The translations under genes were made by a program, and so were the position numbers. From NCBI GenBank assembly GCA_000004985.1, contig GG738851.1: a DNA stretch of 64,000 bases; one strand, given 5' to 3'. Shown here piece after piece: positions 9,961 to 53,875 of the stretch (position 1 is its first letter; every line of letters begins with the position of its first letter). Origin of the DNA: Naegleria gruberi. Its lineage: Eukaryota. The notes under the pieces are model-generated. The model worked only from the letters and a program-made list of their open reading frames with translations, ran no database searches and was not told the origin of the DNA.

Positions 9961-10250
9961 TATATTTATTAATAGAAGAGGGCTTGGAAAAAAAATTTGG
10001 TGTTTATTGAAGGGTCCATTTCAATTAACGGGACAAAAAAAATTGTTTTTATTTTTGGAAAGCTTAAAAGTTCAATAAAAAAATGATGATCAATCGGAGG
10101 CTAACATCTTCATAAATACAATGAATTAATGAATGAAAATTGGACCATACAGAGAAATATACGTCTGCTATCTACTATAAAAACTGGAACATTTTTAAAA
10201 AGAAAATAGTGTCTAAAAATTATGATTTGATGCGTCGACCGGGAATTGAA

Positions 10251-10628
10251 ATTTCCTTTTTTGGAACTCATTTAACTTTTAATTTTATGATGAAATTATG
10301 AATGTTTTATTTTATTATTATTCATGATGTGAAACATCATGTTGAATTCTGTTCATTATTTTTAATTCATGATGTGAAACATCATGTTGAATTATTAACA
10401 AATGTTGTTCTTCAATTTTTCATTGAATGTTGGAAATATTGGAAAGTTGGAAATAAAAGTTGGAAGTTAGGTAACGGGTTATGGAATTACCTAATGTGAA
10501 ATACATTGTAACAGAATTAACAAGAATAAAAGCAAAATCCTACATAGAGTTGGAGAACGGGAAATGAAATTCCCAAATTGAAATTGAGAAACAACTATTC
10601 ATTTCACAATAATTCATACTATCAAAAT
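10251..10628. mobile_element. 378-bp insertion within the tRNA-Gly gene, flanked by an 8-bp target-site duplication (GAATTGAA at 10243-10250 and 10629-10636); non-autonomous element, family unknown
   Basis: The tRNA is reconstituted exactly by removing 10251-10628 together with one copy of the 8-bp repeat. The insert is AT-rich with no ORF and no clear TIR. It contains a tandem duplication with a hairpin. Confidence 0.6.
10320..10393. repeat. two copies of a 29-bp unit (ATTCATGATGTGAAACATCATGTTGAATT) spaced 45 bp apart; each contains the palindrome CATGATG-TGAAACA-TCATG
   Basis: Exact direct repeat seen in the sequence. The downstream GTTGGAA-rich triplet lies at 10429-10470. Confidence 0.7.
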
Positions 10629-11014
10629 GAATTGAACCCGGGTCACGGCGATGGCAACGCCGTATTCTACCACTAAACCATCGACGCTTCTTATTAGTCT
10701 ATCAAATATTATAATAATAGATAGTGTGATTTAATAAACTGTCATCAATGAAGTGTGAACAAATGAATGGAGCGCCACATTACCAAAAAAAAATATCAAC
10801 CCTAAACGGTTTATCGTTTCAACATGTAGCCAAATTTTTCAAGAACAAAAAGCAATAATTTATCACCAACAAGAATACTTGAGAATGATAAATCAAGTTA
10901 ATAGTAATAATGAAAATAACTCTTCTGATGATCACAAAAAGCCAAGAAAAACCAAGTTTCAAGAAATTCTAGAAGCACCGAAAGGATGTACAGAATACAA
11001 TCCTCATCAATCTT

Positions 11015-12076
11015 TTGCTTTGCAAGTATATTGGATTGTACGTTCCCCACGCTGCTTCTGAGATGATACAACATGGCTTTACTCCATGCGCATCGGCTAC
11101 ATCAAGGGATACACCAACAACAATAACCTACTTGTTCAGAGTTTCCAAAGATCAGAGATTAGCCGAACAGATGAAACAAGAGGTTCTCTCTATTGGACAA
11201 CACCCACACTATCAACCATCCTTTAAAAGTTTATCGATGGGAGTGCCACAGACAAGTGTAGAATTAAAATTGAGACATGGTGGTATTGATACAAAACCAC
11301 TCTCATGGGCACAAGATGAATCTATTGAAGCACATAGAGAAGAATTGGATTTTGATCCTGTTGTGTTGGAGTGCACTGAAATTTACTTGGACAATAGAAG
11401 TTTTTATGAACATGGAGCTTCTCGTGAGTGGATGACTTTCTCTGCTGAAATTCTAAAGCCAGCCAGATCATTAAAGCCAAAGACTTATTGTGTTGGTACT
11501 CCTTCTCAAGAAATTTGGGAGAAAACTCTCGAATCCTATTTAAAGGCAATTCGAATGGATGATGAAACTGTTGGAAAGGATATTAATCCTGGTCTATTTG
11601 TGCTACCTGAAAACTTTGTGGAGAATGTTGATTCAACTAGGTTTTTCCTAGAGTTGGATTTACAAGTAGAAAGAGACTGTATTGAAGTTGTTCGTCCATT
11701 ACTTGGTCAACTACAAAAAGATCTCAAAGCATCCTATATGATTATTCTTCCAATCAATATGGATAATGATAAGCCAACTGTTATTGAATTAAGAATCATG
11801 CTCTCATTTTCTCATTCCTCCAATATCGACCCATCTCAACTAAAAGCAATTTCCAACCAATGCAAGAATTTAGATGGAAGATTAATTGTTTTTGGAACTA
11901 GTGAAGAGGAAGATATCAACAAGGCCAATCATTTCGTAGAATTGACCTCTATCACTGATTCAAAACTTTCCATTCTTCACTCCAAACAAGCTGAAAACTC
12001 TATTCTTGCAGGCTATCCTCTTCATCCATTGATTAATACTTTGACTCAGAATGATCAATTACAATATCAAGTGTAA
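11015..12076 (+). CDS. hypothetical protein; possible 5' exon at 10879..11037
   Basis: A 353-aa ORF. The first in-frame ATG (MIQHGF...) is at 11063. The upstream ORF 10879-11061 could be joined by a 25-nt GT..AG segment (11038-11062), but that is too short to be confident. Confidence 0.45.
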   Translation: MLCKYIGLYVPHAASEMIQHGFTPCASATSRDTPTTITYLFRVSKDQRLAEQMKQEVLSIGQHPHYQPSFKSLSMGVPQTSVELKLRHGGIDTKPLSWAQDESIEAHREELDFDPVVLECTEIYLDNRSFYEHGASREWMTFSAEILKPARSLKPKTYCVGTPSQEIWEKTLESYLKAIRMDDETVGKDINPGLFVLPENFVENVDSTRFFLELDLQVERDCIEVVRPLLGQLQKDLKASYMIILPINMDNDKPTVIELRIMLSFSHSSNIDPSQLKAISNQCKNLDGRLIVFGTSEEEDINKANHFVELTSITDSKLSILHSKQAENSILAGYPLHPLINTLTQNDQLQYQV

Positions 12077-14753: not shown

Positions 14754-14758
14754 AAAAA
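14754..14758 (-). terminator. Pol III T-run terminator after 5S copy A
   Basis: The plus strand shows AAAAAG immediately 3' of the gene on the minus strand. Confidence 0.5.
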
Positions 14759-14877
14759 GACTACAGCACCACAGGTTCCCAAGTTGTCTCCAACCTCAGT
14801 ACTGATGTGGCTCGACGATGCTTAACTTCTCAAATCGGACGGGATGAGGTGCATTCATCGTGATATGGCCGTAGCCA
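14759..14877 (-). rRNA. 5S rRNA gene, copy A
   Basis: The reverse complement reads GGCTACGGCCATATCAC...CCCGTCCGATTTGAGAAGTTAAGC...AGTACTGAGGTTGGAGAC...GGGAACCTGTGGTGCTGTAGTC. Helix I/V motifs and a box-C-like GAAGTTAAGC are present, and TTTTT follows. It is identical to copy B. Confidence 0.9.
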
Positions 14878-15176
14878 TTCATGGTATGAAATCATTCCTT
14901 ATTAATTGAAATACTTTCTTTATGTGTGAAATATACATATGTTTTTCTTTTCAAGACCGGACTTGAAAATTAGGTAATGAGCCTTGAATATCCAATTTAT
15001 GAATCAGACCGTGTATACCTCCTATTGAACATGTTGAATCGAAACGTTGTATGTAGGAAAGTAATTAAGCTAATTTATAGAGCTAAAAGAAATTCCAATC
15101 CGATCATACTTTTTTCCGAAACCACTATCCCAAATCATATTAGAGTTGAAGAACCTTTCAGAGCTTTGTCAAAGGG

Positions 15177-51618: not shown

Positions 51619-51749
51619 TGTATTTTCTAGAAACTATGCTTCAGTGGAGAGCTGCTTATAAGCATCTACAATGAAAATAAACCCAACACGTTTATCTATT
51701 TTCCACTAATAGGTATATTAGTTATGATTAAGATTTTACCTCAATGAAT

Positions 51750-51867
51750 GGCTACGGCCATATCACGATGAATGCACCTCATCCCGTCCGATTTGAGAAG
51801 TTAAGCATCGTCGAGCCACATCAGTACTGAGGTTGGAGACAACTTGGGAACCTGTGGTGCTGTAGTC
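51750..51867 (+). rRNA. 5S rRNA gene, copy B
   Basis: Identical over 118 nt to the reverse complement of 14759-14877. Followed by TTTTT. Confidence 0.9.
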
Positions 51868-51872
51868 TTTTT
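51868..51872 (+). terminator. Pol III T-run terminator after 5S copy B
   Basis: TTTTT lies immediately 3' of the gene. Confidence 0.5.
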
Positions 51873-52055: not shown

Positions 52056-52304
52056 GTGGAAGAGAAATCAAAAGTTGCGAAACAGATATTTTCAGATGAT
52101 ATTTGTTTTGAAATAATTTCCATGCTTGATGATTCGTGGTTTATTTTAAATAATTGTTCTTTAATTTCAAAACAATTCTTTAATGTGATCAAGGAACGTT
52201 CAAAACTTGTTATTCAATTTAAAACAAAATTTACAAAGAAAAGAATTAAATTATTCATGAAAAGTCAATTTATGAATAGTATGGTTAATGTTAAATTTGC
52301 TTGA
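52056..52304 (+). CDS. F-box-like N-terminal ORF, probably part of the downstream LRR gene
   Basis: DICFEIISMLDDSWFILNNCSLISKQFFNVIKE is F-box-like. It is in frame +2 relative to the LRR ORF and overlaps it. Confidence 0.35.
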   Translation: MEEKSKVAKQIFSDDICFEIISMLDDSWFILNNCSLISKQFFNVIKERSKLVIQFKTKFTKKRIKLFMKSQFMNSMVNVKFA

Positions 52305-52764
52305 CTCGAGAGAAAAAGCCAAATTCATCAGTGAAATGAAACAATTATCATCACTGAATGTTTATAACAATGAAATTGGTTGCGAAGGAGCCAAATATAT
52401 AAGTGAAATGCAACAATTAACATCAGTTGATATTTATTACAATGAAATTGGTGATGAAGGAGTCAAATATATCAGTGAAATGAAACAATTATCATCACTT
52501 AATGTTTATAACAATGAAATTGGTGATGAAGGAGTCAAATACATCAGTGAAATGAAACAATTAACATCACTTAATATTCCTGACAATCGAATTAGTGTTG
52601 AAGGAGTCAAATATATCAGTGAAATGAAACAATTAACATCACTTGATATTTCTTATAATGAAATTGGTGATGAAGGAGTCAAATATATCAGTGAAATGAA
52701 ACAATTATCATCACTTAATATTTCTTACAATGAAATTGAATTTTGGCAGGGGGGCGGAAAGTGA
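52288..52764 (+). CDS. leucine-rich repeat protein (RNI-like 24-aa repeats)
   Basis: Six or more repeats of ISEMKQLTSLxIxxNEIGDEGVKY. The last five codons and the stop come from the inserted element. Confidence 0.7.
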   Translation: MLNLLDSREKAKFISEMKQLSSLNVYNNEIGCEGAKYISEMQQLTSVDIYYNEIGDEGVKYISEMKQLSSLNVYNNEIGDEGVKYISEMKQLTSLNIPDNRISVEGVKYISEMKQLTSLDISYNEIGDEGVKYISEMKQLSSLNISYNEIEFWQGGGK

Positions 52765-53684
52765 AGAAAAATGATGAGAAAGGAAAAAATAAACAAAAAA
52801 ACAACCAGTTTAATTTTCTGAACAACCAAAACCAAAGCCATGTTTCAGACCTTGTAAAGTAACTTTCTGATTATTAGCCAGAAATGCTTAAGAATCAACT
52901 TTTTCGTAACTCCACAAACAGTACAGCAAAAGGGTTTTGCCATTTTTTGGAAGTTTTTTGTAAATAAAAATGCATAATAATTGTGATTGAGATTAAACAT
53001 TATTATCTGCCACATCGAAGAAACAATTCCAACCTTTGATATTTGGAATATATCATTACTACATGAATTATCGCGATTTGACAGAAGCTATTTTTTATTT
53101 TTTGCTTCTATCTTAAGAACGAAAGTTAGCCATCACACTCATTCAATTTCATACCAAAACCAAGCGTACACAGAGAGTTCAAAAAATCCTCCAGCCACAA
53201 CGAAGGAATCTTTTAAAGGTGTCATGTGTTCAATTATTGAACTTTATGAAATTTAAAAGTAACTGAGAGAAGCTATTTTTTTATTTCATCGTATTTATTT
53301 TTTTTAATACTTCCTAAATAGTGCATGTGTTTTTAGCTTAAAATTTAATTCTGAAAATATGCTGTTTACGATAAATACTTCACAGAAATGAAAAATTCCA
53401 AGATGAGAAATATATATATTGGTACTGAAATGTCTTCAAATTGCTAAAGTTTTGGGAAACATCATCCTCGACCCTGAGAGTATCTATGTGAATAAATTCT
53501 AGACAACAAGACGTGAATATGTGAATTAAAATCGATATTGTGAAACTTCACCTGTTTATAGAACTGTAACAGATTATTGGATGTATAGAGTTGTATATTT
53601 ATTGAAAAAACATATATCGACTTGGAACCACTTTGACAATTCTCAACATTTTCGCTCGGCTGATACCAACTTTCCGCCCCCCTG
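52747..53684. mobile_element. hAT-like non-autonomous DNA transposon (MITE), 938 bp, with a perfect 16-bp TIR (CAGGGGGGCGGAAAGT...ACTTTCCGCCCCCCTG) and an 8-bp TSD (AATTTTGG at 52739-52746 and 53685-53692)
   Basis: The TIR and TSD are exact in the sequence. The CAG terminus and the 8-bp duplication are hallmarks of the hAT superfamily. No transposase ORF is present. Confidence 0.8.
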
Positions 53685-53875
53685 AATTTTGGTAAGGGGT
53701 TTGTAGTCCTCTCCCGCCAAGTTTAATCCACTTTTCACTAGCAAATAAAATGCCAGAAATTCACTGATAATCCACCTGCTGGTGGAAAAGCGTATTCTGC
53801 TTTAAATAACTCTCTGCGTTCTTGGTCCAATTTTCCAACAACAAAAAACAACAATAATAATTATTATTAACAGAA

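What the first reader, a model, noticed from the sequence alone, without database searches (positions are those of the whole stretch)
10231..10687. tRNA-Gly(GCC) gene split in its T-loop by a 378-bp insertion with an 8-bp target duplication
The 5' 59 nt of a canonical tRNA-Gly(GCC), through the T-loop, lie at 10629-10687 on the minus strand. The 3' 20 nt (T-loop to discriminator) lie at 10231-10250. GAATTGAA is duplicated at both junctions, and excising 10251-10628 plus one repeat restores a perfect tRNA. The insert is AT-rich and non-coding, with a 29-bp unit duplicated 45 bp apart that contains a hairpin palindrome. It lacks hAT-like CAG termini. It is therefore probably a different family of small non-autonomous element. 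Alternatively its ends have decayed. Insertion into a Pol III gene body rather than near it is unusual.
Basis: seen in the sequence. Interest (0 to 1): 0.7.

Follow-up and report, generated by a model that had tools for sequence, protein, structure and literature searches.

The report
Insertion-broken glycine tRNA gene in Naegleria
One copy of a glycine tRNA gene in the amoeba Naegleria gruberi has been cut in two by a 378-base insertion that duplicated 8 bases of its target, almost certainly leaving a dead gene copy; this is ordinary, and whether the inserted piece is a mobile element could not be checked.

Summary
On the minus strand, 10687..10629 holds tRNA-Gly(GCC) positions 1-61 and 10250..10231 holds positions 54-73. 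TTCAATTC stands at both junctions. Removing 10251-10628 plus one repeat gives a 71-nt perfect cloverleaf, identical base for base to an intact gene on an unrelated metagenome contig (66.9 bits against Rfam tRNA; the broken remnant scores 21.2).

The window is Naegleria gruberi NEG-M nuclear DNA.

The best reading is a single staggered-cut insertion with an 8-bp target duplication in the T-loop (B box) of one member of a multicopy tRNA family, leaving a pseudogene. The insert opens with TTTT and has four T4 runs on the tRNA strand. T4 is the run that follows both 5S genes here, so Pol III should stop at the junction.

The insert has no coding capacity, no Rfam match and no terminal inverted repeats beyond 4 bp. 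No second copy was found anywhere I could search.

A bulge-helix-bulge-like fold forms at the junctions, but it is a by-product of the palindromic AATT centre of the duplication. No Dada-type (tRNA-targeting) transposase turned up in Naegleria. Interest is low to moderate.

The parts
10629..10687 (-). 5' fragment of tRNA-Gly(GCC), canonical positions 1-61: acceptor 5' strand, D arm with A box, anticodon arm (GCC), T-stem 5' strand, T-loop and C61. The B box is nearly complete: GGTTCAATTCa against GGTTCAATTCc in the joined gene.
   Evidence: Identical to L003 207-265.
10629..10636 (-). Upstream copy of the 8-bp target-site duplication TTCAATTC (tRNA positions 54-61).
10251..10628 (-). 378-bp insert. 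It is 25.4% G+C and non-coding. On the tRNA strand its first third is T-rich and its last third A-rich. Its ends are ATTTTGATAG... and ...AAAAAAGGAAAT, which share only a 4-bp inverted match.
10624..10627 (-). First TTTT run on the tRNA strand, at insert nt 2-5. This is the probable Pol III stop for transcripts starting at the broken gene. Three more T4 runs lie at insert nt 92, 98 and 171.
   Evidence: T4 directly follows both 5S rRNA genes of the window and follows tRNA-Ile in L003.
10315..10348 (+). Internal repeat, copy 1 (34 nt), containing the palindrome CATGATG-TGAAA-CATCATG.
   Evidence: families D2 and I1.
10360..10393 (+). Internal repeat, copy 2 (94% identical to copy 1, 45 bp downstream), with the same palindrome.
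10243..10250 (-). Downstream copy of the 8-bp target-site duplication TTCAATTC.
10231..10250 (-). 3' fragment of tRNA-Gly(GCC), canonical positions 54-73: T-loop, T-stem 3' strand, acceptor 3' strand and discriminator A.
   Evidence: Identical to L003 258-277.
10215..10219 (-). TTTTT run starting 12 nt downstream of the tRNA 3' end. This is the original Pol III terminator of the gene, now stranded behind the insert.

Best explanation
One copy of the multicopy nuclear tRNA-Gly(GCC) gene of Naegleria gruberi was hit by a single insertion event.

**Mechanism (inferred).** The target DNA was cut with an 8-bp stagger across T-loop positions 54-61, which lie inside the B box. A 378-bp AT-rich non-coding segment was joined in, and gap repair duplicated TTCAATTC. 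The agent was most likely a transposase or integrase-type enzyme, or a target-primed retroelement, acting on a short non-autonomous element. Its family cannot be named, because the insert has no diagnostic termini and no second copy was accessible.

**Consequence (inferred).** The result is a pseudogene. The A box and an almost complete B box remain in the 5' fragment, so Pol III may still start there. It meets TTTT at the second base of the insert and should release a roughly 64-nt RNA lacking the 3' acceptor strand. That RNA cannot be aminoacylated. Decoding of GGY codons is carried by other, intact copies.

**Shown:** the split, the duplication, the exact restoration of a real tRNA sequence, and the T-runs.
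**Inferred:** the enzymatic mechanism, the mobile nature of the insert, the termination and the loss of function.
For: - The fragments overlap by exactly 8 nt and join into a perfect cloverleaf. The joined sequence is identical to an intact gene on contig L003, which scores 66.9 bits against Rfam tRNA. The broken gene scores 21.2 bits, below the threshold of 29.
- The original T5 terminator still follows the 3' fragment, so this locus once held a normal gene.
- The organism is N. gruberi NEG-M (exact protein matches). This genome holds transposons that make 8-bp duplications: the hAT-like MITE at 52747-53684.
- The tRNA strand of the insert has four T4 runs, the first at nt 2-5. T4 is the run directly after both 5S genes in the window and occurs 8 nt after tRNA-Ile in L003.
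- The insert has no Rfam family, including no self-splicing intron.
- Both tRNA halves and both repeats are free of mutations, which fits a recent event.
- A review states that insertions in the D or T arms of one of many synonymous eukaryotic tRNA genes are generally taken as pseudogenes (PMC4090602).
Against: - No second copy of the insert was found in the window, in IMG/VR or in GTDB genomes.
- No predicted protein resembles the insert's 65-aa ORF.
- There are no terminal inverted repeats beyond 4 bp. Inverted-repeat scores are no better than shuffles.
- There is no clean poly(A) tail.
- Its G+C content (25.4%) matches the local flanks (25.9% and 28.3%), so composition does not mark it as foreign.
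- The lack of any mutation in the two halves would also fit a gene that is still under selection.
- No T5 or longer run occurs on the tRNA strand (probability 0.03-0.16 by shuffling).
- Loss of expression is inferred, not measured.
Confidence: 0.8

Rival explanations
1. The insert is not a transposable element. It is a one-off piece of DNA captured during repair of a staggered double-strand break. One version is filler DNA ligated in after a hAT-type element excised and left its two 8-bp duplication copies behind. Another is a hAT-type element that lost both of its ends. The tRNA gene is dead in either version.
For: - No second copy was found anywhere searched.
- No terminal repeats exceed chance.
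- The composition is like neighbouring intergenic DNA.
- hAT-like elements with 8-bp duplications are present in this genome.
Against: - The searches covered almost none of the N. gruberi genome, so the absence of copies is weak evidence.
- Clean retention of two perfect 8-bp copies flush with unrelated DNA is not the usual excision footprint.
- No donor sequence was found in the window.
- No organellar rRNA or tRNA match was found, and the 65-aa ORF has no protein homologue, so a mitochondrial fragment is unsupported.
Confidence: 0.18
2. The insert is a non-autonomous member of a target-specific transposon family that recognises tRNA T-loops or B boxes. It would behave like the Dada superfamily: TIR-less DNA transposons living inside multicopy small-RNA genes.
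For: - Dada elements have no terminal inverted repeats, sit inside tRNA genes (including tRNA-Gly), make 6-7 bp duplications that can look like 8 bp, and have internally deleted derivatives (PMC3706591; PMC8869645).
- This insert is TIR-less, lies inside a tRNA gene, and has a short target duplication.
- A 20-nt stretch inside the insert (10555-10574) is 85% identical to the right junction (10237-10256, family D4).
Against: - All tRNA-targeting Dada families described insert at tRNA nt 8-13 (A box), not 54-61.
- Naegleria is not named in either Dada paper.
- A profile of three Dada transposases searched against 5.8 billion proteins returned only Perkinsus, fish and one bacterial MAG protein, and no Naegleria protein. 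The sensitivity of that search is limited by its word filter.
- Only one insertion is known, so target specificity cannot be judged.
- The D4 similarity is weak (E = 2.9 against the whole window).
Confidence: 0.05
3. The 378 nt are a giant non-canonical tRNA intron. The whole locus would be transcribed, the junctions would fold into a bulge-helix-bulge motif, and the tRNA splicing endonuclease and ligase would remove the insert to give a working tRNA-Gly.
For: - In a read-through transcript the T stem (CCGGG/CCCGG) is followed by bulge UUC, a 4-bp helix AAUU:AAUU formed between the two repeat copies, a second bulge UUC, and an outer helix AUUUU:GAAAU.
- This is close to the hBHBh' definition of a 4-bp helix flanked by two 3-nt bulges (PMC4090602; PMC3728597).
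- A fold forced to contain the acceptor stem, the T stem and this motif lies only 3.8 kcal/mol above the unconstrained minimum.
- In-phase cuts in the two bulges would restore the tRNA.
- Both halves are mutation-free, and the tRNA strand has no T5 or longer run (p = 0.03-0.16).
- T-loop introns exist in Cyanidioschyzon merolae and in nucleomorphs.
Against: - The motif follows automatically from a direct repeat whose centre, AATT, is a palindrome already present in this tRNA's T-loop.
- Identical bulges and the extra shared C are what a DNA duplication predicts, not what a BHB requires.
- One unpaired C lies between the central and outer helices. In the best constrained fold the outer helix is not adjacent to the second bulge.
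- Four T4 runs, one at intron nt 2-5, should stop Pol III, since T4 ends the 5S genes here. C. merolae split genes have no termination signal between exon segments.
- Known eukaryotic tRNA introns are 6-133 nt and archaeal ones 11-129 nt, so 378 nt would be about three times the record.
- No paper retrieved by the searches run here describes non-canonical tRNA introns in Naegleria.
Confidence: 0.03
4. Assembly artefact: the Sanger assembly of NEG-M wrongly placed unrelated sequence inside a tRNA gene.
For: The two contigs from a 93-98% identical Naegleria in metagenome ERZ929261 both stop short of the region, at window 10670 and 10170. The structure therefore has no independent confirmation.
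Against: A precise 8-bp duplication at both junctions, with exact restoration of the tRNA, is a biological signature and is not what a misassembly produces. The flanks on both sides are collinear with the metagenome contigs.
Confidence: 0.02

Closest known systems
tRNA pseudogenes made by insertion into one member of a multicopy eukaryotic tRNA family
   Same: One gene copy is interrupted in the T arm. The sequence is otherwise canonical, and intact identical copies exist elsewhere (L003). The review literature treats such insertions as pseudogenes (PMC4090602).
   Different: The insertions discussed there are short. This one is 378 bp and carries a clean 8-bp target duplication.
Dada superfamily of DNA transposons (Kojima and Jurka 2013, PMC3706591; PMC8869645)
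   Same: They insert inside tRNA, snRNA and 5S genes. They have no terminal inverted repeats and make a short target duplication (6-7 bp, sometimes apparently 8 bp). Internally deleted derivatives exist, and they occur in a protist (Perkinsus).
   Different: Dada tRNA families insert at nt 8-13 (A box), whereas this insert lies at nt 54-61 (B box). No Dada transposase was detected in Naegleria. There is no shared sequence and only one copy is known.
hAT-type non-autonomous elements (MITEs), such as the one at window 52747-53684
   Same: The target-site duplication is 8 bp, the size is small, the element is non-coding, and it is in the same genome.
   Different: hAT elements have terminal inverted repeats (here 16 bp, CAGGGGGGCGGAAAGT). 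The insert has only ATTT/AAAT and no similarity to that element.
BHB-dependent non-canonical tRNA introns (Crenarchaeota; Cyanidioschyzon merolae; nucleomorphs)
   Same: The position is in the T-loop. The junctions can fold into a 3-nt bulge, a 4-bp helix and a 3-nt bulge next to the T stem.
   Different: The length is 378 nt, against a maximum of 133 nt for known eukaryotic tRNA introns. There are internal T4 terminator-like runs. The junctions are a direct repeat, which is the signature of a DNA duplication. The outer helix is imperfect, and there is no expression evidence.
tRNA-gene-targeted retroelements (Ty3 in yeast; TRE5/TRE3 and DGLT-A in Dictyostelium). This comparison rests on my own knowledge.
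   Same: They are associated with Pol III genes and make a variable short target duplication.
   Different: Those elements land upstream or downstream of the gene, not inside it. This insert has no LTR, no reverse-transcriptase remnant and no clear poly(A) tail.

Membership tests
tRNA gene (functional, Rfam RF00005) | A contiguous cloverleaf scoring above the gathering score of 29 bits | tested here: not met
   The remnant 10617-10687 scores 21.2 bits and is absent from the gathering-level scan. The same sequence uninterrupted in L003 scores 66.9 bits.
Transposable-element insertion (generic) | A target-site duplication flanks the insert, and removing the insert plus one repeat restores the target | tested here: met
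   TTCAATTC lies at 10636..10629 and 10250..10243. The joined sequence is identical to the intact tRNA in L003.
Transposable-element insertion (generic) | Multiple copies in the genome | not testable with these tools
   There is no copy in the 64-kb window, IMG/VR or GTDB genomes. The N. gruberi genome outside the window could not be fetched.
hAT non-autonomous element | 8-bp target-site duplication | tested here: met
hAT non-autonomous element | Terminal inverted repeats (typically starting YAG/CAG) | tested here: not met
   The ends are ATTTTGATAG and ATTTCCTTTT (reverse complement), matching over 4 bp only. The terminal alignment score of 16 compares with a shuffle mean of 15.0, and 185 of 500 shuffles score as high. 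None of the nine possible phases within the repeat gives a TIR (checked by eye).
Dada DNA transposon | Insertion inside a multicopy small-RNA gene, a short target duplication and no TIR | tested here: met
   The features are as described in PMC3706591.
Dada DNA transposon | A Dada-type DDE transposase is present in the host genome | tested here: inconclusive
   [quoted passage not shown] The search is limited to candidates sharing exact 5-residue words.
Dada DNA transposon | A family-specific target site shared by several copies (known tRNA families: nt 8-13) | tested here: not met
   The site here is nt 54-61, against nt 8-13 in all described tRNA-targeting families. Only one copy is available.
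BHB (bulge-helix-bulge) tRNA intron | Two 3-nt bulges separated by a 4-bp helix, flanked by helices of more than 2 bp | tested here: inconclusive
   T stem, UUC, AAUU:AAUU, UUC and AUUUU:GAAAU can be drawn, and the constrained fold lies 3.8 kcal/mol above the minimum. One extra unpaired C breaks the strict form. In the constrained optimum the outer helix is not adjacent to the second bulge.
BHB (bulge-helix-bulge) tRNA intron | No Pol III termination signal between the exon segments | tested here: not met
   There are four T4 runs on the tRNA strand, the first at insert nt 2-5. T4 follows both 5S genes directly. The criterion is taken from PMC3728597.
BHB (bulge-helix-bulge) tRNA intron | A spliced mature tRNA is detected | not testable with these tools
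   No RNA data are available.
Self-splicing (group I or group II) intron in a tRNA gene | A match to a ribozyme covariance model | tested here: not met
   No group I or II hit was found at E up to 10 in 10000-10900.

The most novel reading that the evidence does not exclude
The 378 nt are a functional, BHB-processed intron in the T-loop of a nuclear tRNA of a heterolobosean. It would be about three times longer than any known tRNA intron, and it would have been created by a DNA insertion whose palindrome-centred target duplication itself supplied the splicing motif. That would be a direct example of how a transposon-type insertion can give rise to a non-canonical tRNA intron.
Probability: 0.03. 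Interest if true: 0.85.

Novelty: new member of a known kind. Interest (0 to 1): 0.25.

Why it matters
As it stands this is a tidy example of an insertion killing one redundant tRNA gene copy in Naegleria gruberi. It is useful for annotation: a tRNA pseudogene, plus one unclassified 378-bp sequence to add to a repeat library if other copies exist.

It would matter more in two cases. If genome-wide searches showed the same sequence sitting in the T-loops of other tRNA genes, it would be a B-box-specific, Dada-like element in a lineage where none is known. If RNA data showed precise removal, it would be a tRNA intron born from a target-site duplication.

Tried and rejected
1. **Orthologous locus in a close relative.** Two contigs of ENA metagenome ERZ929261 match the flanks at 98% and 93%. 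They end at window 10670 and 10170, so neither reaches the insert. Presence or absence in that relative stays unknown.
2. **Fetching N. gruberi DNA by protein.** The NCBI gene positions are not on record.
3. **Fishing for other copies through the insert's 65-aa ORF.** No homologue was found.
4. **Scanning for the 26-nt palindromic core.** There were no hits in IMG/VR or in GTDB genomes. These collections are not expected to hold Naegleria DNA, so this is a weak negative.
5. **The single metagenome scan.** I used the tRNA 5' part as the pattern. It gave one contig with an intact gene and no further split copies.
6. **Self-splicing intron or any known RNA family.** None was found.
7. **Foldback or TIR architecture.** The RNA fold z-score is -3.06, but DNA inverted-repeat scores lie within the shuffles. 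The structure comes from the two palindromic 34-nt repeats and the T-rich-to-A-rich asymmetry.
8. **Foreign composition.** Rejected: the flanks are equally AT-rich.
9. **Mitochondrial fragment.** No support: the 65-aa ORF has no homologue and there is no rRNA or tRNA match.
10. **Solo LTR.** Rejected by eye: the duplication is 8 bp rather than 4-6 bp, and no phase gives TG...CA ends.
11. **Dada transposase in Naegleria.** Not found.
12. **Literature searches.** No paper retrieved by the searches run here describes Naegleria tRNA introns or tRNA-targeting elements.

Full report
**What the window is.** Six long ORFs translate to exact matches of Naegleria gruberi strain NEG-M proteins (EFC48489, EFC48492, EFC48365-48370). 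All are recorded on one contig of 693,645 bp. The window is about 33% G+C and gene-dense. It carries two dispersed 5S rRNA genes and a tRNA-Val. This is therefore nuclear DNA of a heterolobosean amoeba.

**Checking the observation.**
- Read on the minus strand, 10687..10629 is the first 59 nt of a tRNA-Gly(GCC). It runs from the acceptor stem through the T-loop to C61.
- 10250..10231 is the last 20 nt, running from the T-loop to discriminator A73.
- The two fragments overlap by exactly TTCAATTC (canonical positions 54-61). The repeat does not extend on either side.
- Joined with one repeat, ARAGORN draws a 71-nt cloverleaf without a mismatch in the acceptor or T stems.
- A scan of JGI metagenome contigs for 27 nt of the 5' fragment found one contig, L003. 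It carries the same 71 nt uninterrupted, next to a tRNA-Ile and followed by T5 runs.
- That intact copy scores 66.9 bits against Rfam tRNA. The broken remnant scores 21.2 bits, below the gathering score of 29, and is missing from the gathering-level scan.
- ARAGORN's own call at 10617-10688 covers the same stretch as that remnant.
The only correction is that the internal duplication is 34 nt at 94% identity (10315-10348 and 10360-10393), each copy with a 7-bp-stem palindrome.

**What the insert is not.**
- It matches no Rfam family at E up to 10, so it is not a group I or II intron.
- Its longest ORF is 65 aa and has no homologue among 5.8 billion proteins.
- It has no other copy in the window. 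The best off-target match is 39 bp of AT-rich sequence at 85% identity. The window's self-comparison shows only the 5S pair, a 72-bp tandem array and one short match.
- Its ends share only ATTT/AAAT. Alignment of the left end against the reverse complement of the right end scores 16, against a shuffle mean of 15.0. The half-against-half score of 26 is reached by 37 of 300 shuffles.
- The RNA fold is more stable than shuffles (z = -3.06). That comes from the two palindromic repeats and from a T-rich 5' third facing an A-rich 3' third.
- Its 25.4% G+C is low for non-ORF DNA of the window (3rd percentile) but equals that of the immediate flanks, 25.9% and 28.3%.

**What the genome can do.** A scan for 8-bp duplications flanking inverted termini found one clean element at 52747-53684. 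It is 938 bp, with a 16-bp TIR CAGGGGGGCGGAAAGT and the duplication AATTTTGG. It is a hAT-like MITE. N. gruberi therefore has or had an enzyme that makes 8-bp staggered cuts. The insert in the tRNA shares nothing with that element.

**Would the broken gene work?**
- The 5' fragment keeps the A box and ten of the eleven bases of the gene's own GGTTCAATTCC (B-box) stretch, so Pol III initiation is plausible. This is inference from the standard type 2 promoter.
- The insert starts ATTTTG. The tRNA strand has T4 runs at insert nt 2, 92, 98 and 171.
- In this same window both 5S genes are followed directly by TTTT and nothing longer. The tRNA-Ile of L003 is followed by TTTT at +8. T4 therefore appears to serve as a terminator in this lineage.
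- Transcription should end at the junction. That would yield an RNA without the 3' acceptor strand.
- The original T5 terminator still sits 12 nt beyond the 3' fragment.
- I conclude that this is a pseudogene. This is inferred, not measured.

**The most interesting alternative.**
- The duplicated octamer has the palindrome AATT at its centre. In a read-through RNA the two copies can therefore pair.
- This gives the T stem, bulge UUC, helix AAUU:AAUU, bulge UUC and then AUUUU:GAAAU. That is nearly the bulge-helix-bulge motif recognised by tRNA splicing endonucleases, defined as a 4-bp helix between two 3-nt bulges (PMC4090602; PMC3728597).
- A fold constrained to contain the acceptor stem, the T stem and this motif lies only 3.8 kcal/mol above the minimum. 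In-phase cuts would regenerate the tRNA.
- I rate this reading at about 3%, for five reasons:
  1. The motif is an automatic by-product of duplicating this particular T-loop.
  2. Identical bulges and the extra shared C are what a DNA duplication predicts, not what a BHB requires.
  3. The outer helix is imperfect.
  4. The four T4 runs should prevent read-through, whereas C. merolae split genes carry no terminator between segments.
  5. 378 nt is about three times the longest known tRNA intron: 6-133 nt in eukaryotes and 11-129 nt in archaea.
- The absence of T5 or longer runs on the tRNA strand is only mildly unusual (p = 0.16 with mononucleotide shuffles, 0.03 with dinucleotide shuffles).

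**Comparison with known tRNA-invading elements.**
- Dada DNA transposons are the closest in behaviour. They live inside tRNA, U1, U6 and 5S genes, lack terminal inverted repeats and make 6-7 bp duplications that can look like 8 bp. They have deleted derivatives and occur in the protist Perkinsus, including in tRNA-Gly (PMC3706591).
- All described tRNA-targeting Dada families insert at nt 8-13 (PMC8869645), and Naegleria is not named in either paper.
- A profile of three Dada transposases taken from the paper's supplement retrieved only Perkinsus, a fish and one bacterial MAG protein, and nothing from Naegleria. That search has limited sensitivity.
- Membership is therefore not supported, and a Dada-like way of life remains a roughly 5% possibility.

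**What could not be done.**
N. gruberi gene positions are not on record in the contig look-up. No DNA collection here holds eukaryotic genomes.
- A close relative (93-98% identical) is present in ENA metagenome ERZ929261. Its two contigs stop at window 10670 and 10170, just short of the insert on both sides.

**Verdict.**
- The reading [quoted passage not shown] is correct.
- The gene copy is most likely dead.
- The mobile-element status and family of the insert are unresolved.
- This is an ordinary kind of event with one unclassified insert. Interest is low to moderate.

Noticed in passing
window 52739-53692: A clean hAT-like non-autonomous element lies at 52747-53684. It is 938 bp, with perfect 16-bp terminal inverted repeats CAGGGGGGCGGAAAGT and the 8-bp target duplication AATTTTGG on both sides. 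It has no sequence similarity to the tRNA insert.
   Followed up: partly
window 52317-52738: A tandem array with a 72-bp period (about 85-89% identity between copies) lies inside ORF 52288-52764. It abuts the hAT-like element directly.
   Followed up: no
window 14754-14882 (-) and 51744-51872 (+): Two dispersed 5S rRNA genes, 37 kb apart and in opposite orientation, are identical over 129 bp. Each is followed directly by TTTT only, which suggests that T4 suffices as a Pol III terminator in Naegleria.
   Followed up: partly
window about 11051 (gene spanning about 10744-12076, + strand): Relative to the 98% identical metagenome contig L001, the window lacks 2 bp (CA). In L001 the gene next to the tRNA is one 444-aa ORF with a weak CCDC53/WASH-subunit Pfam hit. 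In the window it is split into two frames (10879-11061 and 11015-12076). This could be a frameshift, a sequencing error or an intron in the NEG-M model.
   Followed up: partly
L001 and L002 (ENA ERZ929261, run ERR1078381, PRJEB11402): A metagenome holds a Naegleria very close to N. gruberi NEG-M. Identity is 98.0% on the 5' side of the tRNA (tRNA orientation; higher window coordinates) and only 92.8% on the other side. Both contigs end just outside the tRNA and insert region.
   Followed up: partly
L003 47-119 and 207-277: In a JGI metagenome contig the intact tRNA-Gly(GCC) lies 87 bp downstream of a tRNA-Ile(AAT). Both the window's tRNA-Gly gene and the L003 copy are preceded by AAGAA directly before position 1.
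   Followed up: no
window 10555-10574 versus 10237-10256: A 20-nt stretch inside the insert (GGGAATTTCATTTCCCGTTC on the tRNA strand) is 85% identical to the right junction (GGAAATTTCAATTCCCGGTC). That junction spans the insert end, the duplication and the tRNA 3' part. A second, weaker copy of the unit lies at 10465-10495. This may be chance (E = 2.9 against the whole window) or a trace of an earlier junction.
   Followed up: partly
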